64,000 nt of DNA, taken from the UHGV virus genome UHGV-1366919, one strand, 5' to 3'. This document shows, one piece after another, positions 38,493-51,179 of this stretch (position 1 is the stretch's first letter; the number at the start of each line of letters is the position of its first letter). This DNA is from a virus. The notes below the pieces were generated by a model. That model had not been told where the DNA came from. It ran no database searches and was given only the letters and a program-made list of their open reading frames with translations. The translations under genes and the position numbers were made by a program.

Positions 38493-40301
38493 TTAAATGG
38501 TGATTCTTTTTGTAATACCATTATGCTTGTCTAATTGAATAATTTCACCGATTCCAGCTTTAAAGAAATCAGGCTTATGAGAAATGAGATAAATCGCCTG
38601 GTCTTCTTTCTGGGCAAATTCTTCTAAAATATTACAAACAATTTCCGAGTTAGTTTTATCCAAAGAAGAATCAAGAATTTCATCATAAAAAGAAACGTTG
38701 TAACTTACGGAACCTTGCAATTTAAGAATATCTCTAAATGCCCATATACAAGCTAAGTCTAGCATTTTAGATTCAGCACCGGAAAGATTTCCATAACTTA
38801 CCATAATTCCTCTTTTATTGAGAATTTCTTCTTCAAATACTTCATTAAATGATAATGAATATTGAGAATTCTGCTTAGTGAGATAATACTTGATTCTAAA
38901 ATTCAGTAAATCAAGAAGCTTTTTAATAATATAAGCCCTGATACCTTCTTCAGAAAGAATAAATCTTGCAATTTCAAATTTAGCTAAAGAAGCATTAATG
39001 TCTTTAATAACTTCTTCTTTTTTGGCTTTTTCTTTTTCGGCTTTTTCAATTAAATCTTTGAATATATCTTTTTCTTCAGATTCCTTCTCATGAACCTGGT
39101 ATTGTTTTAAAAGATCTTCTTTTAATTTTAAAGTATCAGTCTCAGCTTTAATGGCTGACTTATTATTGCTAATTTCCCATTCTAAATCCCTTAACTGGTT
39201 TAACTCTTTTTGCTTCTTTTGCTGAATATCCTGAGCTAGGGCAATAAGTTTGTTTAATTTTTCTTTTTCTTCTTCTTTCTTTAGAAGTTTATCTTGAAGT
39301 TCTTTAATAGAATGTTTAATTTCAATTTGATCTTTATCAGTAAATGGGCGGTTACATTCGGCACAAACTGGACCAAACTTTAATAAGGTATCAATTTTTT
39401 CAGATATAGTCTTTTTTTCATTCTTAATAGCTCCTAAATCAGCAGCTATTCTTATTTGGGCTTCCCGAGTCTTTCCTATATCATTTTTAATAGCATTTAA
39501 AATACTCTCGGAAACCTTTATTTTAGAAAGTCTAGCTTCCTCTTCCTTTAATTTAGAAATCTTTAAGGAAATTTTATGAATATCTTTTTCAATAATTTGT
39601 TTCTCAAGTTCTTTCTTTTGTTTTTGATTGGCAATTCTCTCCAACTCTTTCCTTTGTTTAGAAGTATAATCAAAAATATTAGAATTAATTTGTTCTACAA
39701 GTTTAGATTCTATGTCAAGTTCTCTTTTAGAGATATTAATATCATCCTTAACAAGCTTAAACATTTGAGTTACTACATCAAGATTAAAAAGACTTTCAAT
39801 AAACTTCTTTTTATCAGTCTTGCCCTGGCTCATAAATGGAATTGTATTATTTGCCTGCATGGCAATACAATTCTTAAAAACCTCTTGAGATGTAGAAAGA
39901 ACCTCTAAAATATAAGTTGTCGTATTAGGAATACTATCTCTTGTTTTATCCCTCCCGTCCTTGAATACCTTTAAAGAAGACGGATTTAATTCTCGAATAA
40001 TCTTAAAATTATTATTTCCCTTGGTCGAATTACAGTTAAATTCAAGAATAACTTGAGTTGTTCCTTTAACCAAATTATTAGGAATATTCCTAATTGCTAA
40101 ATCTTTTAGAGTTTTTCCAAAAATAGCAAAAGAAAATGCCGCAACGATAGAACTTTTGCCAACACCATTTTTAGTGCCCGGTACATCAGAATTTGTACCA
40201 GTGATGAAATTAACACCTGGTTTAAATTCAATTACAACAGACTCTTCACCAATCGATAAAAAGTTTTTAATTTGAATTTTTTTAAATGTTATAAACTTCA
40301 T
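38493..40301 (-). CDS. Rad50/SbcC-like recombination ATPase (T4 gp46-like)
   Basis: A 602 aa ORF. It has an N-terminal Walker A (GTNGVGKSSI), a long coiled coil with a CxxC zinc hook (GPVCAECNRP), and C-terminal signature motifs (LSGAES) and Walker B/D-loop (AIYLISH). Confidence 0.85.
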   Translation of the reverse strand: MKFITFKKIQIKNFLSIGEESVVIEFKPGVNFITGTNSDVPGTKNGVGKSSIVAAFSFAIFGKTLKDLAIRNIPNNLVKGTTQVILEFNCNSTKGNNNFKIIRELNPSSLKVFKDGRDKTRDSIPNTTTYILEVLSTSQEVFKNCIAMQANNTIPFMSQGKTDKKKFIESLFNLDVVTQMFKLVKDDINISKRELDIESKLVEQINSNIFDYTSKQRKELERIANQKQKKELEKQIIEKDIHKISLKISKLKEEEARLSKIKVSESILNAIKNDIGKTREAQIRIAADLGAIKNEKKTISEKIDTLLKFGPVCAECNRPFTDKDQIEIKHSIKELQDKLLKKEEEKEKLNKLIALAQDIQQKKQKELNQLRDLEWEISNNKSAIKAETDTLKLKEDLLKQYQVHEKESEEKDIFKDLIEKAEKEKAKKEEVIKDINASLAKFEIARFILSEEGIRAYIIKKLLDLLNFRIKYYLTKQNSQYSLSFNEVFEEEILNKRGIMVSYGNLSGAESKMLDLACIWAFRDILKLQGSVSYNVSFYDEILDSSLDKTNSEIVCNILEEFAQKEDQAIYLISHKPDFFKAGIGEIIQLDKHNGITKRITI

Positions 40302-40569
40302 TATCAGCCAACTTTTCTAAAATCTTTTTCTTATTTTTAACCTTTTGCTTATGCTTCTTTACAAATGAAAAACATTTTGAATAAAACTTACATTCATTCT
40401 TTGAACAATTACAATGAGGCCACCAATCATTTCTGCAAAATGGTAATTCTTTCCAAGAATTTTTATGAGCACCTCCATGTACTCCATCTCTTTTATCCCG
40501 GGACATTAGAAATCTCTCTATATTTCTTTTGCAAATATTGCAATACTTCTTTTGGATTAGGAACATCAA
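40282..40569 (-). CDS. Questionable small Cys-rich ORF in the SbcD-SbcC gap
   Basis: A 95 aa ORF that overlaps both neighbours in other frames. It has CxxC...H...C.C pairs and could be a zinc-ribbon micro-protein or spurious. Confidence 0.2.
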   Translation of the reverse strand: MMFLIQKKYCNICKRNIERFLMSRDKRDGVHGGAHKNSWKELPFCRNDWWPHCNCSKNECKFYSKCFSFVKKHKQKVKNKKKILEKLADNEVYNI

Positions 40570-41530
40570 GCAAACCGATATATTCTTTAATTGCTTCCAT
40601 TAATTCTAAAGCAACAAAATCAGTTTTTGTATCAATAGCAGAAGAAAATCCTTTATTATCCCAGTCAATATCGCATTCCAGAGGCTGACAAGATGACAAT
40701 AATTTAATAAGTTCATCCATGTCATCTACAGTAATATTCTTATCAATCGCCAGTCGAAGATAATTATTAACAATTTCTTTACCAATCTTAGAAGGTTCTT
40801 TTCTAATTAGGGAAGAAAGAGTCATCTTAATAAATTTAGGAGAAATCTCATTATAATGATAAGAATATTTTCCTGTATCTACATCAAGAATAATAAAACC
40901 TTTCTTATCTCCCGCCTCTCCATAGTTCATCTGAAAAGGATTACCTACATAAACAATAGATCCAGATGAATATTTTCTAAACTGGGCTTTATGAAAATGC
41001 CCAGAAAAAATACTATTAAATTTCTTCAATAGATCAGATAATTTAAAACCTTCTTCACAAAGATGCTCAGATGAATTCATTTGAAACGTATTAATCTCAA
41101 AATGACCGAACAAATAATCAGAAGATTCAATTTCTGGATTTAACGGATTAAATCCCCATGGACAAAGAGTAATACTTTTATCCCCGATATTCAATCTGGC
41201 AGGCTTATCATAATATTTGATATTATTATATCCTTGAAAAATAGAAGTAGAAGATACTTCAGTGCTTCCGGAAAAATACAAATCGTGATTACCTGGAAAT
41301 ATATGAATAGAAAAATCCTCCAATAACCGGAGGATTTTTGCTGTTGAATTCAAAGTATAAACATCTACCGAATTTCTGTTATGAAACCAGTCTCCAAGAA
41401 AAAATACATCTTTAATATTTTTCTCTTTGAGAGTTTTAACCATATCTTGGATAAATTCAACTGCAACACTATGCCAATGTTGATTATCTCCTTTAATTCC
41501 AAGATGTAAATCAGAAAAAATTGCTATCAT
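40493..41530 (-). CDS. Mre11/SbcD-like nuclease (T4 gp47-like)
   Basis: A 345 aa ORF with calcineurin-like phosphoesterase motifs (DLHLG, GDWFH, GNHD). Confidence 0.85.
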   Translation of the reverse strand: MIAIFSDLHLGIKGDNQHWHSVAVEFIQDMVKTLKEKNIKDVFFLGDWFHNRNSVDVYTLNSTAKILRLLEDFSIHIFPGNHDLYFSGSTEVSSTSIFQGYNNIKYYDKPARLNIGDKSITLCPWGFNPLNPEIESSDYLFGHFEINTFQMNSSEHLCEEGFKLSDLLKKFNSIFSGHFHKAQFRKYSSGSIVYVGNPFQMNYGEAGDKKGFIILDVDTGKYSYHYNEISPKFIKMTLSSLIRKEPSKIGKEIVNNYLRLAIDKNITVDDMDELIKLLSSCQPLECDIDWDNKGFSSAIDTKTDFVALELMEAIKEYIGLLDVPNPKEVLQYLQKKYREISNVPG

Positions 41531-41595: not shown

Positions 41596-42777
41596 TCATT
41601 CCGCAATAAAAACCTTATTTCCTACATCCCATATCCGGTCCCAACCGTTTGCACTCATATTTTCATATTCAGATAATTTAAGATCAAAATAATTCAAAAG
41701 ACGCGGTAATTTATGTTTTTGAAATTGAACTCGGCTTTTTCGTTGAAGAGAATTATCTTTAAAATAAAAGTAATTCGGGTCAGCATCATGAATCTCCTTA
41801 AATCCAATTTGTCGATAAAGCTGACCTTGGGACCATCGACGATCGGCATATGTAATTACACTGCCTGCATTATTTCTACGAAAATATTCAAACAACTTGG
41901 AAGCTCCTCCAATTACTGTAAAATTAGCAACTGTACAATAGCGAATCAGTTCATAATCATATTTCTTGTTAAACCTGGATTTATTAAAAGTCATTACAGC
42001 CACCATGCGATTCTTATAAAATAATCCCAGATTAATGGAAGAAGCGTAAGTTCCTTGAATATGATATTTTAAAATAAATGGCTTAACTTGCTGATAAGTC
42101 AATTCGCGAACTTTACATTTACGAGCATAGATCTTTCCGGAAGTAATTCCAAGAAGATGACGAATACGGGCCTTAACAATCTGCGGCTTCAATTCCCATT
42201 CATCTTCGAATACATGAATTAACCGTACTCCTTTTTCTTCACACTTATTTGTTTCAGTCAAATGGTACCGTTTAGTAAATCCATTTCGTTCACAATGTCC
42301 TGAAAGGGAATCAAACTCAAAAGCAATCTTCTTATCTGGAATATGAATAGCAATAGTATAAGGAGCTGCTAACTCTTTATCATTCTCAATAATCCGGCCA
42401 TTATAAACACTTTTAATATAATTTATAAAATTATTATAAGACTCAGGGTTAGATACCGGCTCAACAATAGGAGCTGGTTCTTTTTTAGAAGACGTGGAAA
42501 CTTTTTTAATTTTTTCCTTCTTTTGCTTTGGTTCTTTTGGAGCTTTGGACACTTTAGGCTCTGTATTTTTCCTTAATGCTTCAATAGCACATTGCCTGCA
42601 TCCATACTTGGAACGTATAAAATGCTGGGTTAAACAAAAGAAAGATCCATGATCCTTGCAAATAATTTCAACCGGTTTCCTGTTACTTTGATAATCAACT
42701 TTAGAGTAATCAAATTGATCTCCAAATTTTTCAAGGCAGAATTTAATAAAAGCTTCCTTACGTTGTTCTTTTTTCAT
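41596..42777 (-). CDS. Homing-endonuclease-like protein (N-terminal zinc-ribbon repeat unit, C-terminal Vsr/DUF559-like nuclease-fold domain)
   Basis: A 393 aa ORF. The N-terminal unit (FDYSKVDY...IICKDHGSF...H..YGCRQC) is homologous to the repeats of the next gene. The C-terminal segment (IAFEFDSLSGH...GVRLIHVFEDEW) resembles the PD-(D/E)XK Vsr/DUF559 family. It is a paralog of 42799-44109. Confidence 0.5.
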   Translation of the reverse strand: MKKEQRKEAFIKFCLEKFGDQFDYSKVDYQSNRKPVEIICKDHGSFFCLTQHFIRSKYGCRQCAIEALRKNTEPKVSKAPKEPKQKKEKIKKVSTSSKKEPAPIVEPVSNPESYNNFINYIKSVYNGRIIENDKELAAPYTIAIHIPDKKIAFEFDSLSGHCERNGFTKRYHLTETNKCEEKGVRLIHVFEDEWELKPQIVKARIRHLLGITSGKIYARKCKVRELTYQQVKPFILKYHIQGTYASSINLGLFYKNRMVAVMTFNKSRFNKKYDYELIRYCTVANFTVIGGASKLFEYFRRNNAGSVITYADRRWSQGQLYRQIGFKEIHDADPNYFYFKDNSLQRKSRVQFQKHKLPRLLNYFDLKLSEYENMSANGWDRIWDVGNKVFIAE

Positions 42778-42798
42778 AGAATGAATATAACTAATTTC

Positions 42799-44109
42799 TC
42801 AATTTTTAAAGGTGCGCAGATTACACACTTTATTTTTAGTATGTATCTTGGTAAACAACAAATTTTCTATAGATTTTCTATTATTTTTCCAGTCTCTTTC
42901 TTCGACATTTATTAGTAGAATATTTGCTTCTTTACAACGCCTTTCCTTTTCGGCATGACAGCCAGGCTGTCTTTCTTCTTTAAGTTTATGCCAGTGAGAT
43001 CCATTATATTCAATGCCAATTCTTAATTCGGGAAGAAATATGTCAAGCTCCATTCTTCCTATTTGAGTCTTATCATTTTCAAGAACTTCTCCCGAATAAA
43101 TTGACTTAATATATGCACAAACTTCTTTTTCTCCTCTAGATGTCTGTTTAGATAAGGCACATATTGGACAACCTTGTTGAAGATACCAATGACTAGACGG
43201 TATTTGTTGAAATACTCCGTGTACAGGACATATGATATTAACCTTAGAATGTGCGTTTACATAATTTACTAAAGAATAATCATATTTTTCTCCATGAACT
43301 TTTCTAGACCTCTTAATAAATTCATCAATTGTTAACTTTTCAAAACCAAAACATTTAGGACACCCTGAGCCATTTAAATGACTATTTGGTTTTTGCCAAA
43401 AAATACCATGTTTAGGACAAATAATTGATATTTTTTTCTGAGAATGCTCATAACTTACTTGAGAATAATCATAAAGAGTACCATGAACTTTTCTTGCTTT
43501 CTGAATAAAATCTTCAGTCGTTACTAACTCTTTATTTCCACATTTTGGACAACCACACCCATTAAGATGGGAATTAGGTGTTTGCTGAAATATATGTCCA
43601 CACTTTTTACATTTAATTTTTACCTTAACTTTATTACCCTGGTAATCCACTTCAGAATAATCAAATTTATCACCGTGTACTTTACTAGCTTTTTCAATAA
43701 ATTCTTTAGTTGTAGATTTATTGTTATTAGAGCAAAAAGGACATCCAAAACCTTTCATGTGGCTTTGTGCCTGCTGTTCAAATATATGCCCGCATTTTTT
43801 ACATTTAATTTTTACTTTAAGCTTATTGCCTTGATAATCTACTTCAGAATAATCAAATTTATCGCCATGAACTTTTTGGGACTTTTCAATAAATTCTTTA
43901 GTTGTTAGCTTCTTAACACCAGCACATTCTAAACATCCGCATCCCTGGACATGGCTATAAGCTTTTTGCTGAAAAGAACCGTGAATAGGACATATTATTG
44001 TTATGACATTATGAGCTCCTGTATAAAAAGTCTCAGAATAATCATATTTGTTTCCATGAACCTCTGTACATTCTTTAATAAATTGCTCATTTGATTTTAA
44101 TTTTGCCAT
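42799..44109 (-). CDS. Homing-endonuclease-like protein with 5-6 tandem zinc-ribbon repeats and a C-terminal Vsr/DUF559-like domain
   Basis: A 436 aa ORF. It has about six copies of a ~56 aa unit (EFIxKxxKVHGDKYDYSxVxY....KVxIxCxKHGxFxQ....H..GxGCPxC). The C-terminal segment (ELDIFLPELRIGIEYNGSHWH) is nuclease-fold-like. The repeats are near-identical at the DNA level. Confidence 0.5.
   Translation of the reverse strand: MAKLKSNEQFIKECTEVHGNKYDYSETFYTGAHNVITIICPIHGSFQQKAYSHVQGCGCLECAGVKKLTTKEFIEKSQKVHGDKFDYSEVDYQGNKLKVKIKCKKCGHIFEQQAQSHMKGFGCPFCSNNNKSTTKEFIEKASKVHGDKFDYSEVDYQGNKVKVKIKCKKCGHIFQQTPNSHLNGCGCPKCGNKELVTTEDFIQKARKVHGTLYDYSQVSYEHSQKKISIICPKHGIFWQKPNSHLNGSGCPKCFGFEKLTIDEFIKRSRKVHGEKYDYSLVNYVNAHSKVNIICPVHGVFQQIPSSHWYLQQGCPICALSKQTSRGEKEVCAYIKSIYSGEVLENDKTQIGRMELDIFLPELRIGIEYNGSHWHKLKEERQPGCHAEKERRCKEANILLINVEERDWKNNRKSIENLLFTKIHTKNKVCNLRTFKN
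43290..43960. repeat. Intragenic tandem DNA repeats (~168 bp units)
   Basis: Adjacent repeat units are nearly identical at the nucleotide level (for example the two KVHGDKFDYSEVDYQGNK(L/V)KVKIKCKKCGHIF units). They produce the spurious + strand ORF 43567-43908. Confidence 0.7.
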
Positions 44110-44150
44110 TTATTTTCATTTCGGAAACTCCTGAAAAAATTAAGGTGAAA

Positions 44151-44711
44151 TTAATCTTCTGAATCTTCTTCCGGTCTTACATAAATTGGAGCGTCTGCGC
44201 ATTGAATAAGTTCCGGATATTTTACTTCCCTATATTTTTTAACTTTTTCAGCGTGCTTCTTTTCATTTTTTATGATTGCACAGAAGGACCAGTAACAGAT
44301 TTGCGTCCAAAAACTGAAAGCCTTAGACCCATAATTCACACTCCATTTCTTCCCACGCAGTGCGGTCATACATTTAATGAGAGCACTTGAAATCATTTCA
44401 TCTTTATAAGAATAACGGCTAAAGCTCGAAGACCTTGCTAAACCTTGCGCAATCTTAAGGAAACATTCCGCGATGTAATTCATATTCGGTTTATCGCTGT
44501 CCTCAACTTCATAAAACCTTTTAATTGCCGCGTCAAATTTAGCCGAATCTACATAATAGTCCTCTTTTTTAGTCTTTCCTCGATTCTGAACAGTAATAAA
44601 CGCCCTTTTCTTATTCGGATCATTCAGCATTTCACGCTTTTTATCCAAATCTTCAGGCGGACGTGTTTTAGTAGAAGGCTGTACAAATTGTTCTTTATTA
44701 GCTTCAGTCAT
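44151..44711 (-). CDS. Late-transcription sigma factor (T4 gp55-like)
   Basis: A 186 aa ORF. [39 protein letters not shown] aligns with T4 gp55 [69 protein letters not shown] aligns with [28 protein letters not shown]. Confidence 0.8.
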   Translation of the reverse strand: [186 protein letters not shown]

Positions 44712-44734: not shown

Positions 44735-46237
44735 TTAGGCCTTTAGGCCAATTATTTTAAAAGGAATCTTTTCTTGCTCATATAATTTGATACGTTCATC
44801 TCTATGCCTTAACGCATATTTTGTATTGGGAATTATATCGATAACCCGGGCAAGAGTTTTATTTTCCTTTAAACGCAGTATTCGTCCGATGGATTGAATT
44901 ATTCTTACATTGCTTTTTCCAATCAAACCAGGAAATACAATATTATGCAAATTTTTGATATTGATACCTGTTGAGAATATTGAAGCTTGAGCAATTAACA
45001 AAATATTGTTTTCTTTTTCCAATTGCTCCTTAATATCGGTTCGTTCTTCAATCGGCACCTCTCCTTGAATAAAGTAAACTTTTCTATTCGGATCGGCTTC
45101 TTTAAATTTTTGCAGAAGATTTTCCCCATGAATAATCCTATTGACCAAAATTAAAGTATTATTGCTTAATTTTGAAACAATAGAAGTAATAGTTGAGTTA
45201 AACTGGTCATTATTGCTCAACCATTCGGTTTCTTCCATGAATCCAAAAGGCCTTTTAACACCTTCATCATCCAGGACATAAGTCGGAATATCATTTAATT
45301 GAATATTAATTCCAAAAGTTGAAACCTGCGTCAGGAATTTATCTTTTCTTAATTCTGCAGAAGGCAGTTCAAATCTTACAGGTCCAATTTTGCCTAAGAT
45401 TGACCATTTGTCATGTTTATCATGTGGTAATGTACCTGTGAAGCCATATCTTAACTTAGCCGGAAGATCTGCGATAATCTTAGAAATTTTATTATTGGCC
45501 TTAATTGAATGAACTTCATCGATGATAATACAGTCAAATTTTTGTATCTCTTTTTTAAGGTCATCATACTGGGCTCTGAGAATACTTGCTCCGCAAATAA
45601 CGACTTGTGATTTCTTATCGAAAGGAATATTTGAAAACCATTTGGAAATAGAATATTTGAAATTCTTTAAATGCGAAGAAATATCATTAAAAGTCTGATT
45701 GGCCAAATCAGGAAAAGGACAAACCAATAAAACTTTTCTGGCTAATTTATTCTTAAGAATATTCCGGATTAATAATGCGCAGCATACTGTCTTGCCCGCT
45801 CCTGTTCCTAAAATATAAATACCGTTTTGCTTATTAAGGGCAATTTGCATCGATTCTTTTTGATAAGGCCTGACTTCTGATCCTTTATCATCAATATAAA
45901 TGTTCTTCGTATCAAGAACTAAATCATTGCTCTGAATATATTTTTTAATGCCGTCATCTAATTTAAATTTAACAGAACGATCATAAAATGTATTCTTAAC
46001 AAATGCAAGTATGTCTCGTAATAATCCGATTTCAAATTCACCGGACATTTTAATGCAAGATTTCTTAATATATTCTTTACTCGGTTGAATTTTGATGCCT
46101 TTTTGACGACATCTCTTGACATACATATGATTTCGTTCAACTGTAGAAAAATGATCTCTCAATTGTTCATAAGCATCAAAGTACTCAAATATAATCCTAC
46201 CAAGATTATTTGATGTTCTGTTGATTTCGATAATCAT
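44735..46237 (-). CDS. uvsW: UvsW-like SF2 DNA helicase
   Basis: A 500 aa ORF with Walker A (ILGTGAGKT) and a DEVH box (IIIDEVHS). The C-terminus (IQGEVPIEERTDIKEQLEKENNILLIAQASIFSTGINIKNLHNIVF...IIQSIGRILR) aligns closely with T4 UvsW (VSGEVDTETRNIMKTLAENGKGIIIVASYGVFSTGISVKNLHHVVL...VLQTIGRVLR). Confidence 0.85.
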   Translation of the reverse strand: MIIEINRTSNNLGRIIFEYFDAYEQLRDHFSTVERNHMYVKRCRQKGIKIQPSKEYIKKSCIKMSGEFEIGLLRDILAFVKNTFYDRSVKFKLDDGIKKYIQSNDLVLDTKNIYIDDKGSEVRPYQKESMQIALNKQNGIYILGTGAGKTVCCALLIRNILKNKLARKVLLVCPFPDLANQTFNDISSHLKNFKYSISKWFSNIPFDKKSQVVICGASILRAQYDDLKKEIQKFDCIIIDEVHSIKANNKISKIIADLPAKLRYGFTGTLPHDKHDKWSILGKIGPVRFELPSAELRKDKFLTQVSTFGINIQLNDIPTYVLDDEGVKRPFGFMEETEWLSNNDQFNSTITSIVSKLSNNTLILVNRIIHGENLLQKFKEADPNRKVYFIQGEVPIEERTDIKEQLEKENNILLIAQASIFSTGINIKNLHNIVFPGLIGKSNVRIIQSIGRILRLKENKTLARVIDIIPNTKYALRHRDERIKLYEQEKIPFKIIGLKA

Positions 46238-47445: not shown

Positions 47446-47883
47446 ATGAAGCTAAAAAGACATAAGGATATTGCCTCATTATTCATTAACAAGAAAAAAG
47501 TTGAAGAAGACTGCGAAGGAATGACAGCAGGTTCTGTTTTAGCTCCTTCAGCCCAGGCGACTGGAGGAAATATTACAAATACCGATTCGTATGCCCCAGG
47601 AGACAATAGAATTCCTAAGTCTTTATTCAAAACGAGGGTTATTAAACGAAAATATAAAGAAGAAGATGCTGAAGAATATCCTGAAATTCCGGCTGATTTC
47701 TTTACTGATAAGGAATGGGAAAAAATTGAAGAAGAGGCTGAAAGCCGTGGATGCAGTCCTTATGAAGTAGCTTATCGAGAATATAAAGCCAGAGGAGGAA
47801 TGGACCAGGACCGCAAAATGACGGATATTGAAGTTCAAAAAGCATTTGATGAATTAAAATCGCATTTGGCGGATTATAATTGA
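47446..47883 (+). CDS. Hypothetical protein
   Basis: A 145 aa ORF, divergent from uvsY. Confidence 0.35.
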   Translation: MKLKRHKDIASLFINKKKVEEDCEGMTAGSVLAPSAQATGGNITNTDSYAPGDNRIPKSLFKTRVIKRKYKEEDAEEYPEIPADFFTDKEWEKIEEEAESRGCSPYEVAYREYKARGGMDQDRKMTDIEVQKAFDELKSHLADYN

Positions 47884-48344
47884 TTCCAATGAATCAAGAT
47901 TTAGGTCATTGGGTTACTTCGATAGACATCCCTGAAGAAATATTCGGGTTTGTCTATCGAATTACCAATTTGGAAAATAATAAAATGTACATCGGTAAAA
48001 AACTTTGTACATCGGTTAAAAAGCTTCCTCCATTAAAAGGTAAAACAAGAAAAAGACATAAAAAAGTAGAAACAGATTGGAAAACTTATACCGGGTCTTC
48101 TCCGGAATTAAATGAAGATATTAAAAAATTAGGCAAAGATAAATTTAAATTCGAGATTATAAAATTTTGTACCTGTAAATGGGAATTGAGTTATTTTGAA
48201 GCAAAGGCCCAATTTGAAGAAGATGTTTTATTCAAGCAAGATGAATATTACAATGGTATAATCAATTTAAGAATTGGCCGTTCGCCAAAAGAAAGTCTTG
48301 AAAAATTTAATTTATGCCAATCGAATTTAAAATCCGGAATTTAA
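47880..48344 (+). CDS. GIY-YIG family endonuclease (Seg-like/EndoII-like)
   Basis: A 154 aa ORF. GFVYRITNLENNKMYIGKK is the GIY...YIG signature. Confidence 0.6.
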   Translation: MIPMNQDLGHWVTSIDIPEEIFGFVYRITNLENNKMYIGKKLCTSVKKLPPLKGKTRKRHKKVETDWKTYTGSSPELNEDIKKLGKDKFKFEIIKFCTCKWELSYFEAKAQFEEDVLFKQDEYYNGIINLRIGRSPKESLEKFNLCQSNLKSGI

Positions 48345-49238: not shown

Positions 49239-51179
49239 ATGCAAGAATTTACAAAAATTTTACAAAATATTGAGCTAATTCAGGAAGCTCAAAAAAGAAA
49301 AGATCCTGTTCTTAATGTAGTAACATTATTCAGTGGAATGGGAGCTCCGGAAATTGCCCTTGATAAATTGGGAGTCAAATACAGGATTGTTCTGGCATCT
49401 GATATTGATCCAGAGGCTGAAGCAGTTTATAAGCAACTTCATGGTAAAAAACTTGCTAAAGGAAATGATTCATTTATTCCGAATGTTTATGATGTTTTAG
49501 ACCAGGTTGAACCTTCAAAGCTTAGCGCAGATGTTTTAATTGCAGGATTTTCTTGCCAGGCTTTTTCTTTATCTGGTAAACAATATGGCATTTATTCTCG
49601 TCAAGTAAAACCTGAAGGATCCAATAAAAAATTTGTCGTCAATATTAAAAGGCATTTAACTGATATTAATGGAGATACTGCAATCACTGTTAATAATGAT
49701 GAATCTGATCCTTTACCTGAAGGACTTCCCGAAGGAACTAAAGTAACTATTTCTCCAGATTCTGACGGTAAGCTGGCATTTCAAACATTAAAGATTGCCC
49801 AAACATTAAAGCCAAAAGTTATTATTCTTGAAAATGTTTCTACTTTTGGCCAGGCTGATATTGAAGATGAAGATGAAGTTCCTTCTGAATTTATTACAGA
49901 AGAAAAAGAAATTAAAGTAATTCAATCCAGACTGGGACAATCTGGAAAAGTAGACATATCTGAAGGAGGTTATTTGAGACTCCTTGGAAAGATTTTCAAT
50001 ACTATTGGATATAGTTTTTATCCAATGTACCTTGATCCGACTTCTTATACTAATTCCGTAATTCGTCGTCCACGAATTTATATCGTTGGTATTCGAAATG
50101 ATATTGAAGCAGGAATTAATCCAAATAAATTAGAAGCTTTTGATGATAAGATGGCAACTAATTTTGGATTGAACACCACTAAATCCGAAAAGGATTATCA
50201 AAAGCTTTTGGACAAAACTTTGAACTACATTATGAGTTCAAAGTATTCTCATGGCTATATGTCCAAAAATCCTCGAGAACTTGTTAAAGGTTTAGTCTCT
50301 AAATTTGGCATTAATAGATTTGCAGAAGCTACTGACTATATCTTTAATAAGCTTGTTAAAAATGGAAGTGTTGATCCCAGAAACCTTCAATTAAATCAAT
50401 TTCAGTATGATTCTAATGTTATTGATAAAGAATTTAATGATCCTCAGGTTATTAAATTCTTCAAGAAAATCAGAAGCGAACAGCAACCTGTAATTTTGGA
50501 TGTATCTGAAAAAAGCGATACTGTTGATTATCTTTCTACTGTTTTAGCGGAAGGTATTTCTGGTTATTTTGAAGAATATAGCGGTAAATTTACTATTGAT
50601 AATCCGCAAGGTAAATTAAATTTAGACTTTGGAACTAAACCCGCAAAACCAAAGGTTAAGAAAGAAAAACCATTGGTTCAGGGTGAATTGGATCTTGACT
50701 ATGGGGAAGATCCTTTGGGACAAGTAGTTCAAGAAGCTTTAGGAAAATATAATAATCAAAAAGTTGATGAAATTGCTATTAAGAAATTTAAAGAAATCAT
50801 TGCTAAGAAGTTATTGACCCAATTTCTTTTAAATTCTTATAATAAACGTAATTTAAGTTATATTCCTACAATTCTCAAGAATTCATCTATTCCTATGAAA
50901 GTCGGAGGAGTTGGCAATGCAAACTACTTTATTCTTCGTAATAAATCCGGACAGTTTAGCTGGGGATATATTCATCCGGCAATTTTGATGAAGTTGATGG
51001 GAATGTATTATAATTCAAGTTCCGGAGATGATTCAATTTATCAAAGTATAGCAAAAACAAAACTTGCAAATGGCCGTCCGATTTCAGTTAATGGAATTAT
51101 TCGACGAATTGGTAATTCAATGAGTGTAACAGTTCTTGAAAAATTATTCAAATCGCTAATTTCAATGAAAGCCCTATGA
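49239..51179 (+). CDS. DNA (cytosine-5)-methyltransferase family protein, unusually large, with a non-canonical motif IV
   Basis: A 646 aa ORF. It carries motif I (LFSGMGAPE), motif IV (GFSCQAFSLSG, with Ser replacing the usual Pro of PCQ), motif VI (ILENV), motif VIII (IRRPRIYIVG) and motif X (IGNSMSVTV) at the C-terminus. There are large insertions between motifs IV and VI and in the TRD region. Confidence 0.7.
   Translation: MQEFTKILQNIELIQEAQKRKDPVLNVVTLFSGMGAPEIALDKLGVKYRIVLASDIDPEAEAVYKQLHGKKLAKGNDSFIPNVYDVLDQVEPSKLSADVLIAGFSCQAFSLSGKQYGIYSRQVKPEGSNKKFVVNIKRHLTDINGDTAITVNNDESDPLPEGLPEGTKVTISPDSDGKLAFQTLKIAQTLKPKVIILENVSTFGQADIEDEDEVPSEFITEEKEIKVIQSRLGQSGKVDISEGGYLRLLGKIFNTIGYSFYPMYLDPTSYTNSVIRRPRIYIVGIRNDIEAGINPNKLEAFDDKMATNFGLNTTKSEKDYQKLLDKTLNYIMSSKYSHGYMSKNPRELVKGLVSKFGINRFAEATDYIFNKLVKNGSVDPRNLQLNQFQYDSNVIDKEFNDPQVIKFFKKIRSEQQPVILDVSEKSDTVDYLSTVLAEGISGYFEEYSGKFTIDNPQGKLNLDFGTKPAKPKVKKEKPLVQGELDLDYGEDPLGQVVQEALGKYNNQKVDEIAIKKFKEIIAKKLLTQFLLNSYNKRNLSYIPTILKNSSIPMKVGGVGNANYFILRNKSGQFSWGYIHPAILMKLMGMYYNSSSGDDSIYQSIAKTKLANGRPISVNGIIRRIGNSMSVTVLEKLFKSLISMKAL

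What the first reader, a model, noticed from the sequence alone, without database searches (positions are those of the whole stretch)
41596..44109. Two paralogous homing-endonuclease-like genes with tandem zinc-ribbon repeats inserted between gp47 (Mre11) and gp55
Both proteins share a repeated ~56 aa CxxC...H..GxGCPxC unit (one copy in the first, about six in the second) fused to a C-terminal PD-(D/E)XK Vsr/DUF559-like segment. The repeats are near-identical at the DNA level, which indicates recent expansion or concerted evolution. Their location within a conserved T4 core block (46-47-55) is typical of mobile homing-endonuclease insertions. The repeat domain could be a modular DNA-binding array.
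Basis: partly seen in the sequence, partly recalled or inferred. Interest (0 to 1): 0.55.

Follow-up and report, generated by a model that had tools for sequence, protein, structure and literature searches.

The report
Two Hef-type homing-endonuclease genes, one nuclease-dead

Summary
Both ORFs exist exactly as stated: A is 41596-42777(-), 393 aa, and B is 42799-44109(-), 436 aa. Both belong to the large, already annotated Hef-like family (Vsr-like/EDxHD nuclease). B matches 1,104 phage records and A matches 420.

Corrections to the observation:
- B has five zinc modules, not about six. Each is 63-64 aa, not about 56.
- The modules are 57-75% identical at DNA level, not near-identical.
- In A the nuclease-like segment is central, not C-terminal. 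It is followed by a 180-aa GNAT domain whose best structural match is phage Mu Mom.

New findings:
- A has lost residues that are invariant or nearly so in 119 homologs, including the metal-binding Asp (D→A).
- B keeps all of them but lacks the Mom-like domain.
- Both genes are under purifying selection.
- Strains of the same phage carry B with 5, 3 or 2 modules through in-frame deletions.
- The gp55/gp47 junction is empty in 56 of 77 distant relatives. It holds other cargo in some closer ones, while three closer relatives keep an A-like gene there and a fourth keeps a B-like end plus a divergent A-like gene.

Verdict: new members of a known kind. The complementary split of nuclease and Mom-like functions is interesting but untested.

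The parts
42799..44109 (-). Gene B (436 aa): five zinc modules plus a Vsr-like/EDxHD nuclease domain, with no Mom-like domain.
   Evidence: ORF. PHROG 559/681 and Pfam DUF4379/DUF723. AF2 model with pLDDT 89.3. No match to the family's Mom-domain HMM.
43906..44094 (-). B zinc module 1 (aa 6-68; ligands C40, H43, C59, C62).
   Evidence: Register and identities. Helix plus beta-hairpin unit in the model.
43717..43905 (-). B zinc module 2 (aa 69-131; CxxC...CxxC).
   Evidence: It is the left partner of the 573-nt strain deletion.
43525..43713 (-). B zinc module 3 (aa 133-195). It is 76% aa identical to module 2, the closest pair.
   Evidence: It is the left partner of the 381-nt strain deletions.
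43333..43521 (-). B zinc module 4 (aa 197-259).
43144..43332 (-). B zinc module 5 (aa 260-322). It is the right partner of all strain deletions seen.
42835..43143 (-). B nuclease domain (aa 323-425) with E327, E354, D356, E367, N369, G370, H374 and K388 intact.
   Evidence: Family alignments. Foldseek: 3r3p_B TM 0.80 with rmsd 2.9 A, 1vsr TM 0.57, 3hrl TM 0.68.
41596..42777 (-). Gene A (393 aa): one zinc module, a disordered Lys-rich linker, a nuclease-dead Vsr-like domain and a Mom-like GNAT domain.
   Evidence: ORF. PHROG 3339 at E = 1.5e-98. AF2 model with pLDDT 91.5.
42562..42777 (-). A zinc module (aa 1-72; ligands C40, H43, C60, C63).
   Evidence: Pfam DUF723 at E = 1.2e-6. Model pLDDT above 90.
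42448..42561 (-). A Lys/Pro-rich linker (aa 73-110), predicted disordered.
   Evidence: pLDDT below 50 for residues 75-99.
42142..42447 (-). A nuclease-like domain (aa 111-212) with Y114, T141, A143, S157 and E175 in place of the family's E, E, D, G and K.
   Evidence: 119 homologs have D 119/119, K 119/119, E 115/119, E 116/119 and G 118/119 at these columns. The HMM alignment scores 129 bits with no gap at the motif. The family Asp aligns with D196 of I-Bth0305I, which is mutated to Ala in crystal 3r3p.
41599..42141 (-). A Mom-like GNAT domain (aa 213-393) with H239, R279, D312, R314 and Y321 matching Mom H58, R111, D149, R151 and Y159.
   Evidence: Foldseek best PDB hit is 8bv8 (Mu Mom), E = 1.6e-6. 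Pfam Mom gives E = 0.0045 for A and E = 5e-6 for homolog P0002. HMM alignment to Mu Mom. All family-invariant residues are kept.
42060..42360 (.). Step in between-strain divergence (1.3-7% upstream, about 0-0.7% downstream), read as a recombination breakpoint inside gene A.
   Evidence: SNP profile of the window against L087 and L001. dS gradient from uvsW 0.17 to gp47 0.005.
44151..44711 (-). Flanking gp55-like late sigma factor (context).
   Evidence: phrog_234 at E = 1.6e-21.
40493..41530 (-). Flanking gp47 / SbcD-Mre11-like nuclease subunit (context).
   Evidence: Pfam Metallophos and phrog_100.

Best explanation
A and B are two distantly paralogous members of the Hef-type (Vsr-like, 'EDxHD') free-standing homing-endonuclease family. 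They occupy the variable junction between gp55 and gp47 of an uncultured T4-like phage.

B is the likely working nuclease. Its five zinc modules would bind DNA (inferred). Its intact Vsr-like domain would cut a target in genomes that lack the cassette during co-infection (inferred). Recombinational repair would then copy the cassette and flanking markers (inferred).

A is no longer a nuclease, because the metal-binding Asp and four other nearly invariant residues are replaced (shown). A is nevertheless kept under purifying selection, with an intact zinc module and an intact Mom-like GNAT domain (shown). It therefore now serves a non-cleaving role. The most likely role is binding or chemically marking DNA, possibly to shield the phage's own copy of the target (inferred).

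The zinc array of B is evolutionarily labile. Strains that are otherwise identical carry 5, 3 or 2 modules through in-register deletions (shown).
For: - Family membership: PHROG 3339/559/681 at E = 1e-80 to 1e-101. There are 1,104 phage records for B and 420 for A, many annotated 'Hef-like homing endonuclease'. Campylobacter Hef53, annotated as similar to U5 Hef, has the same zinc-repeat / ELD-nuclease / Mom-like layout. BFVD hits at E = 1e-32 to 1e-38 include proteins named homing endonuclease in phages CP21 and PA5oct.
- Nuclease fold: the family profile hits 3r3p at E = 2e-7. B's model matches 3r3p with TM 0.80 and also matches 1vsr. Taylor et al. 2011 (PMC3239194) place Hef-type enzymes in the EDxHD family.
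- B intact, A dead.
- Both genes selected: dN/dS is 0.09 for B and 0.14-0.17 for A, against 0.02-0.17 for most core-gene comparisons.
- Presence/absence at the site.
- Divergence step inside A, compatible with a co-conversion or recombination boundary.
- Repeat-number variants: 436, 309 (two different junctions) and 245 aa. Microhomology is only 10-12 nt, so assembler collapse is unlikely. L086 has 0 differences in five flanking genes.
- Extra B-like copies sit beside DNA-polymerase fragments in relatives L089 and L095, which shows the family moves within this clade.
Against: - No cleavage, target site or homing event is shown.
- No close relative (above 90% identity) lacking the cassette was found. 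All strain variants carry both genes, so current mobility is undemonstrated.
- A-like genes at the same position in L089/L090/L095 are 57-63% identical, similar to gp47 at 62-65%. This fits long vertical residence.
- Base composition is not anomalous.
- No own promoter or terminator is detectable above chance.
- The divergence step rests on essentially one lineage pair.
- DNA binding by the zinc modules is inferred only from domain type and position.
Confidence: 0.6

Rival explanations
1. Split restriction-modification-like pair. A's Mom-like domain chemically modifies the phage's own DNA (an acyl or aminoacyl adduct on a base, as Mu Mom does on adenine N6). A's zinc module and dead nuclease fold would serve as the DNA-binding scaffold. 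B then cuts unmodified DNA of the host or of competing phages. This is the reading Iyer et al. 2021 gave for fused Mom-REase proteins of jumbo phages, here partitioned into two genes.
For: - Iyer et al. 2021 (PMC7824862) make this prediction for Mom-REase fusions.
- A keeps five of seven Mom active-site residues and all family-invariant residues of the GNAT domain.
- The best structural match is Mom.
- The losses are complementary: B's nearest nuclease relatives mostly (8 of 11) carry about 175 further residues after the nuclease domain, the length of the Mom-like domain, which B lacks. A lacks the catalytic residues.
- Both genes are under purifying selection and always co-occur in strains.
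- L091 repeats the arrangement: a B-like nuclease end, then a protein with vestigial nuclease similarity and an intact Mom-like domain, then gp47.
Against: - Mom's essential S124, and Y59, are not conserved in the A family.
- A scores below Pfam's Mom threshold (17.1 against 27.1 bits).
- No modification has been reported for any Hef-like protein in the papers searched.
- U5 Hef is described in a review as a homing enzyme that cleaves nrdB.
- Only 42 residues of the B-like gene are visible in L091.
Confidence: 0.2
2. Decaying relics. Both genes are remnants of selfish homing endonucleases that are fixed in this lineage and are degenerating (A's active site gone, B's Mom domain and zinc modules being lost), with no present function.
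For: - A's active-site loss.
- B's missing Mom domain.
- Recurrent deletions in B's array.
- This matches the classical invasion-fixation-decay cycle of homing-endonuclease genes (general knowledge).
Against: - dN/dS is 0.09-0.17, within the range of the core genes.
- No frameshift or stop was seen in any of six independent assemblies, and all deletions are in frame and in register.
- A's GNAT domain keeps every family-invariant residue.
- A-like genes persist at 57-63% identity in relatives.
Confidence: 0.12
3. Non-nuclease DNA-binding regulators. The zinc-module proteins act on transcription or replication near the late sigma factor gene, and the nuclease-like folds are only scaffolds.
For: - Position directly downstream of gp55, apparently co-transcribed.
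- A is nuclease-dead.
Against: - B keeps the full catalytic set.
- The family is scattered at many unrelated loci and in 10-11 copies per genome in Campylobacter phages, which is typical of selfish elements.
- Most relatives lack the genes.
Confidence: 0.04

Closest known systems
Hef of phage U5 and 'Hef-like' free-standing homing endonucleases (e.g. Hef53 of Campylobacter phage NCTC12673, F-Lim enzymes of LIMEstone1)
   Same: Both have an N-terminal zinc-containing repeat region, a nuclease core with the ELD...IExxG..WH motif and a Mom-like C-terminal domain. Both are free-standing genes wedged between conserved T4-type core genes.
   Different: Here the three parts are distributed over two genes. 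B lacks the Mom-like domain. A lacks the catalytic residues and has only one zinc module. The zinc module type (DUF723/DUF4379) differs from the repeat in Hef53. A direct comparison with the U5 Hef sequence was not possible, because neither the sequence nor Sandegren 2005 was available.
I-Bth0305I, prototype of the EDxHD (Vsr-like) homing-endonuclease family, PDB 3r3p
   Same: Same nuclease fold and the same catalytic positions. The profile match is E = 2e-7 and B's model superimposes with TM 0.80.
   Different: I-Bth0305I is intron-encoded, binds DNA through NUMOD/HTH motifs and has no GNAT domain. A and B are free-standing and use zinc modules. A naturally carries the D→A change that was engineered to inactivate I-Bth0305I for crystallisation.
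Mom of phage Mu (PDB 8bv8), a tRNA-Gly-dependent adenine N6 carbamoylmethyl transferase
   Same: GNAT fold. The family HMM aligns H58, R111, D149, R151 and Y159 of Mom with H239, R279, D312, R314 and Y321 of A. In A's model three short helices (aa 349-376) lie between the last strands, where Mom has its helix-turn-helix-like insertion; this positional match was judged by eye.
   Different: The essential S124, and Y59, are not conserved. A scores below the Pfam threshold. A's domain is fused to a zinc module and a dead nuclease domain. No activity is known.
Mom-REase fusion proteins of jumbo phages (Iyer et al. 2021; e.g. PA5oct)
   Same: Same domain pairing. A PA5oct protein is a strong structural match at E = 2.4e-32.
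   Different: Those are single chains with both domains presumed active. Here the two functions sit in two adjacent genes with complementary losses.
E. coli Vsr and DUF559/MTES_1575 PD-(D/E)xK nucleases
   Same: Same core fold (1vsr TM 0.57, 3hrl TM 0.68). Weak Pfam MTES_1575 and Vsr hits.
   Different: Not mismatch-repair enzymes. They lack Vsr's own zinc site and carry extra domains.

Membership tests
Hef-type / EDxHD Vsr-like homing endonucleases | Vsr-like nuclease fold | tested here: met
   The family profile hits 3r3p at E = 2e-7. B's model matches 3r3p with TM 0.80 and 1vsr with TM 0.57. A's domain aligns to the family HMM at 129 bits.
Hef-type / EDxHD Vsr-like homing endonucleases | Conserved catalytic residues (E, D, N/H, H and an acidic or Lys partner), protein B | tested here: met
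   E327, E354, D356, E367, N369, H374 and K388 are present. D, E, G and K are invariant in the aligned homologs.
Hef-type / EDxHD Vsr-like homing endonucleases | Conserved catalytic residues, protein A | tested here: not met
   A has Y114, T141, A143, S157 and E175 where 119 homologs have E (97%), E (97%), D (100%), G (99%) and K (100%). A is a family member by descent but is very unlikely to be an active endonuclease.
Hef-type / EDxHD Vsr-like homing endonucleases | Presence/absence polymorphism of the gene at an otherwise conserved site | tested here: met
   56 of 77 loci have 67 bp or less between gp55 and gp47. Relatives with gp47 at 55-63% identity lack the genes. However, three relatives at 62-65% keep an A-like gene.
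Hef-type / EDxHD Vsr-like homing endonucleases | Site-specific double-strand cleavage and biased inheritance (homing) | not testable with these tools
   Needs enzyme assays and phage crosses. The only indirect hint is a divergence step inside A.
Mom family (Pfam PF25680) GNAT DNA-modifying enzymes | GNAT fold closest to Mom | tested here: met
   Foldseek best PDB hit is 8bv8 at E = 1.6e-6 over 195 columns. Stand-alone phage Mom proteins in BFVD match at E = 2e-9. Three short helices (aa 349-376) lie between the last strands; their equivalence to Mom's insertion was judged by eye, not tested.
Mom family (Pfam PF25680) GNAT DNA-modifying enzymes | Score above Pfam's gathering threshold | tested here: not met
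   A scores 17.1 bits against a cut-off of 27.1 (E = 0.0045). Homolog P0002 scores 26.7 bits. hhalign against the single Mu Mom sequence gives probability 3.9%.
Mom family (Pfam PF25680) GNAT DNA-modifying enzymes | Essential residues R111, S124, D149, R151 (plus H58, Y59, Y159) | tested here: inconclusive
   H58, R111, D149, R151 and Y159 are matched by H239, R279, D312, R314 and Y321. S124 and Y59 are not matched. The supporting alignment is weak (6.2 bits).
Mom family (Pfam PF25680) GNAT DNA-modifying enzymes | Base-modifying activity on DNA | not testable with these tools
   Requires nucleoside mass spectrometry.
DUF723 / DUF4379 treble-clef zinc module | Four zinc ligands per unit and a Pfam match above threshold | tested here: met
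   DUF4379 scores 79.3 bits (cut-off 24.5) for B. DUF723 scores 28.8 bits for A and 38.1 bits for B (cut-off 20.9). CxxC/CxxH plus CxxC ligands are present in all six units.

The most novel reading that the evidence does not exclude
A and B may be a naturally split Hef-type element. DNA cleavage (B) and Mom-like DNA marking (A) would have been partitioned into two co-inherited genes that act as a cutter and a self-protector. If so, the unexplained Mom-like domain of the whole Hef-like family would be the element's own immunity device, a homing endonuclease with a built-in modification function. The window would provide a ready-made separation-of-function pair for testing this.
Probability: 0.2. 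Interest if true: 0.6.

Novelty: new member of a known kind. Interest (0 to 1): 0.35.

Why it matters
Taken as homing-endonuclease-family genes in a T4-like core block, these are ordinary. The family is in PHROGs and is annotated in hundreds of phages.

Two things are worth a specialist's attention.

1. The Hef-like family carries a Mom-like GNAT domain whose role in a homing enzyme has not been tested. It is noted only as a prediction by Iyer et al. 2021. Here nature has uncoupled it from the nuclease activity: A is nuclease-dead yet under purifying selection. That argues the GNAT domain does something on its own.

2. The zinc-module array changes length (5, 3 or 2 units) between otherwise identical genomes. 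This gives a natural series for asking how array length relates to DNA target recognition.

Tried and rejected
SEARCHES THAT FOUND NOTHING USEFUL
- Megablast of the locus against 50,697 phage records: no match, so no close isolate exists.
- Tandem Repeats Finder: no array with a 189-192 nt period, because the units are too diverged.
- gp47 pattern search of IMG/VR: only the same phage. The gp55 search was needed to get relatives.
- phmmer of B alone against PDB: only HypA zinc ribbons at E = 0.12. A family profile was needed to reach 3r3p.
- NCBIfam: nothing meaningful for A or B.
- hhalign of the family against the single Mu Mom sequence: weak, probability 3.9%. The Mom link rests on Foldseek, Pfam and motif conservation.
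- Sigma-70-type promoter and terminator scans, and the T4 late-promoter motif: nothing above chance near the genes.

PAPERS NOT HELD
- Sandegren 2005 (Hef) and Iyer 2009. What U5 Hef does is taken from a review.

IDEAS CONSIDERED AND REJECTED
- That the 3- and 2-module versions of B are assembly collapses. The longest exact matches between the recombining units are 10-12 nt. Two different junctions exist for the 309-aa form. The variants come from several independent samples.
- That B is an ordinary member of the Mom-less zinc-array nucleases. Its nuclease domain groups with longer proteins that carry about 175 further residues after it. B's last residues align with the region just before the Mom-like domain of the A family.
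- That D148 ('IPD') compensates for A143 in A. A D/E at that position is also seen in homologs that keep the catalytic Asp (judged by eye from the sequences).

LOOK-UPS THAT DID NOT DELIVER
- The last contig look-ups (P0243, P0253) did not yield a complete A ortholog with its upstream gene.
Full report
WHAT IS THERE

The window carries, all on the minus strand: a UvsW-like helicase (44735-46237), a gp55-like late sigma factor (44151-44711), ORF B (42799-44109, 436 aa), ORF A (41596-42777, 393 aa), gp47/SbcD (40493-41530) and gp46/SbcC (38493-40301). GC content across them (0.30-0.36) does not differ from the flanks.

THE REPEATS

B contains five modules, not about six. They are in register at 189-192 nt spacing, so each is 63-64 aa. 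A has one such module. Each module has a CxxH or CxxC pair and a CxxC pair. They match Pfam DUF4379 ('probable treble clef zinc finger', 79 bits) and DUF723.

In the AlphaFold model of B (pLDDT 89.3) each module is a helix followed by a beta-hairpin and a short helix. Pairwise identity between modules is 40-76% at protein level and 57-75% at DNA level. Only modules 2 and 3 are close, at 84% over 131 nt. 'Near-identical at the DNA level' is therefore wrong, and Tandem Repeats Finder sees no array.

FAMILY

Both proteins hit PHROG families labelled homing, HNH or plain endonuclease: phrog_3339, phrog_559 and phrog_681, at E = 1e-80 to 1e-101. By tblastn, B-like proteins occur in 1,104 phage records and A-like proteins in 420. 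Many are annotated 'Hef-like homing endonuclease', and Campylobacter phages have 10-11 copies per genome.

Hef53 of Campylobacter phage NCTC12673 is annotated as similar to Hef of phage U5. It has the same three-part layout: zinc-containing repeats of another type, a nuclease core with ELD...IExxG..WH, and the C-terminal domain discussed below.

[quoted passage not shown] B's model superimposes on 3r3p with TM 0.80 and rmsd 2.9 A, and also on Vsr (1vsr) and a DUF559-type protein (3hrl). Taylor et al. 2011 had already placed Hef-type enzymes in this Vsr-like 'EDxHD' family.

In A the nuclease-like fold is central (aa 111-212). The C-terminal 180 residues form a separate, confidently modelled domain (overall pLDDT 91.5). 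Its best match in the PDB is phage Mu Mom (8bv8, E = 1.6e-6), followed by many GNAT acetyltransferases.

Pfam's Mom model hits A weakly (E = 0.0045, below threshold) and hits its homolog P0002 at E = 5e-6. Stand-alone phage Mom proteins also match structurally.

Mom was recently shown to use glycyl-tRNA to modify adenine N6. H58, Y59, R111, S124, D149, R151 and Y159 lie at its active site. An HMM of A's family aligns H239, R279, D312, R314 and Y321 with five of these. It does not align Y59 or the essential S124. All residues that are invariant in the family's GNAT domain are present in A.

Iyer et al. 2021 had noted Mom domains fused to restriction-endonuclease folds in jumbo phages and read them as fused restriction-modification units. 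A PA5oct protein of that kind is a strong structural match to A.

I aligned A with its 119 closest homologs. A's residues at the family's most conserved nuclease positions are:
- Ala143, where all 119 have Asp.
- Glu175, where all 119 have Lys.
- Tyr114 and Thr141, where 97% have Glu.
- Ser157, where 99% have Gly.

The HMM alignment has no gap at the motif. The family Asp corresponds to D196 of I-Bth0305I (Vsr D51), the metal ligand. That is the residue mutated to Ala to make the inactive crystal form. A is therefore very probably not a nuclease.

B keeps the whole set: E327, E354, D356, E367, N369, G370, H374 and K388. B has no Mom-like domain. Its nearest nuclease-domain relatives mostly (8 of 11) carry about 175 further residues after the nuclease domain. 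B's last residues align with the region just before the Mom-like domain of the A family. So B looks like a Hef-type protein that lost the GNAT domain, and A like one that lost catalysis and most zinc modules.

A and B are only about 25% identical in the nuclease region, so they are old paralogs.

ARE THEY FUNCTIONAL?

Against strain variants of the same phage, dN/dS is 0.09 for B and 0.14-0.17 for A. Most core-gene comparisons give 0.02-0.17; gp47 against L087 gives 0.50, but from only three differences. The counts are small throughout (6-10 non-synonymous changes per gene). No assembly shows a frameshift or stop.

REPEAT-NUMBER POLYMORPHISM

The same phage lineage, with both genes in the same place, appears in several public assemblies (L001, L082-L087). 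B is 436 aa in three of them, 309 aa in others and 245 aa in others. The short forms are in-frame, in-register deletions of 381 nt (modules 3/5) and 573 nt (modules 2/5).

The 309-aa form exists with two different junctions, as in P0128 and P0130, so it arose at least twice. The recombining units share at most 10-12 identical bases, far below assembler k-mer sizes, so these are not collapsed assemblies. L086 has no difference from the window in uvsW, gp55, A, gp47 or gp46, yet has two modules instead of five. The change is therefore very recent.

THE INSERTION SITE

Among 77 IMG/VR loci with uvsW-gp55-gp47-gp46 synteny (gp55 32-41% identical):
- 56 have 67 bp or less between gp55 and gp47.
- 16 have a 1.07-kb opposite-strand gene.
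- 3 have 2.2 kb of other cargo.
- Only the same phage has A and B.

Closer relatives were found through gp47:
- L092, L093/L094 and L097 (gp47 56-57% identical) have gp55, a 66-72-aa ORF, then gp47. L096 (58%) also shows a 72-aa ORF before gp47, but its contig ends before gp55.
- L099 (55%) has two other genes there, and L098 (63%) has an opposite-strand acidic ORF.
- L089/L090 (65%) and L095 (62%) have an A-like gene, 57-63% identical, directly upstream of gp47. The contigs end inside it.
- L091 (59%) has the end of a B-like nuclease gene, then a 375-aa protein, then gp47. That protein has only vestigial nuclease similarity and an intact Mom-like domain (E = 9e-20).

The junction is thus a plastic site with real presence/absence polymorphism. 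However, the A-type gene has probably resided there for a long time in part of the clade.

Extra B-like copies lie next to DNA-polymerase fragments in L089 and L095.

RECOMBINATION HINT

Between the window and L087 or L001, divergence is 1.3-7% per 300 nt from uvsW through B and the first half of A. It then falls to 0-0.7% from about 42,100-42,350 onward. dS goes from 0.17 in uvsW to 0.005 in gp47. A breakpoint inside a nuclease-family gene fits what is reported for phage nuclease genes generally. This is essentially one observation.

MECHANISM

Best reading (confidence 0.6): this is a Hef-type homing-endonuclease cassette in which B is the cutter and A is a nuclease-dead, still-selected partner.
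- Shown: folds, residues, selection, site polymorphism and array dynamics.
- Inferred: DNA binding by the zinc modules, cleavage of cassette-less genomes, and repair-mediated spread.

Main rival (0.2): a split restriction-modification-like pair, in which A marks the phage's own DNA and B cuts unmarked DNA.

Minor rivals: decaying relics (0.12) and regulators (0.04).

VERDICT

These are new members of a known kind. Interest is moderate to low (0.35). It is raised somewhat by the natural uncoupling of the nuclease and Mom-like functions and by the labile zinc array.

Noticed in passing
window 47880-48344 (+): A third homing-endonuclease-type gene lies 3.2 kb away. It is a GIY-YIG ORF ('GFVYRITNLENNKMYIGKK'). 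The homologous gene in strain contigs L082, L093 and L097 carries Pfam SegE_GIY-YIG.
   Followed up: partly
window 44087-44132 (-): B's ATG (44109) has no Shine-Dalgarno at a usable distance. An AGGAG (44132-44128) sits 8 nt before an out-of-frame ATG (44119). That ATG opens a 10-codon mini-ORF overlapping B's start, so B may be translated by coupling or at a low level. A's start (42777) also lacks an obvious Shine-Dalgarno.
   Followed up: no
window 40302-40492 (gp47-gp46 spacer): This is a second variable spot. It shows 12% divergence against L087, with 0-0.7% in the bins either side. Different small ORFs are called in different strains (48, 52 and 74 aa). Relatives have a Dam methylase (L093), a 165-aa ORF (L095) or about 780-820 bp of extra DNA at this position.
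   Followed up: partly
L089 1580-3846 and L090 1505-3771: In the closest relatives, gp46/SbcC appears to be interrupted. Residues 1-50 and 50-601 are separated by about 460 nt within a 676-aa product that has a faint Intein_splicing hit.
   Followed up: no
L089 4154-5729 and L095 3940-5989: DNA polymerase is called as a product of only 504-508 aa, against 865-895 aa in other relatives. It is followed by a B-like zinc-module/nuclease gene, which suggests a Hef-type gene splitting or abutting gene 43.
   Followed up: no
whole window: The T4 late-promoter consensus TATAAATA is strongly under-represented. There are 4 matches against 15.3 expected, and all 100 shuffles had at least 4. This phage's gp55-dependent promoters probably use a different motif.
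   Followed up: no
window about 49250-50110 (+) and beyond, by homology to L082 1-864: In strain contig L082 a 646-aa product with a C5 cytosine DNA methylase domain (PF00145) lies a few kb beyond the helicase. It is relevant to any idea about DNA modification in this phage.
   Followed up: no
L019 8451-9458 (-), L045 5871-8018 (-): In a subset of distant relatives, the gp55/gp47 junction holds an opposite-strand 335-aa ORF of unknown function. In three loci it also holds a 370-aa ORF.
   Followed up: no
one search hits (e.g. Campylobacter phages CP30A, F372) and BFVD A0A7T3KDC2 (182 aa): In some Campylobacter phages a single match to A spans two annotated 'homing endonuclease' CDSs. A 182-aa stand-alone Mom-like protein also exists (TM 0.92 to A's C-terminal domain). 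Split nuclease / Mom-like arrangements therefore occur elsewhere too.
   Followed up: no
L098 record name: One relative's contig is labelled 'gut metagenome', which suggests this T4-like clade (GC about 31%) is gut-associated. No host was determined.
   Followed up: no
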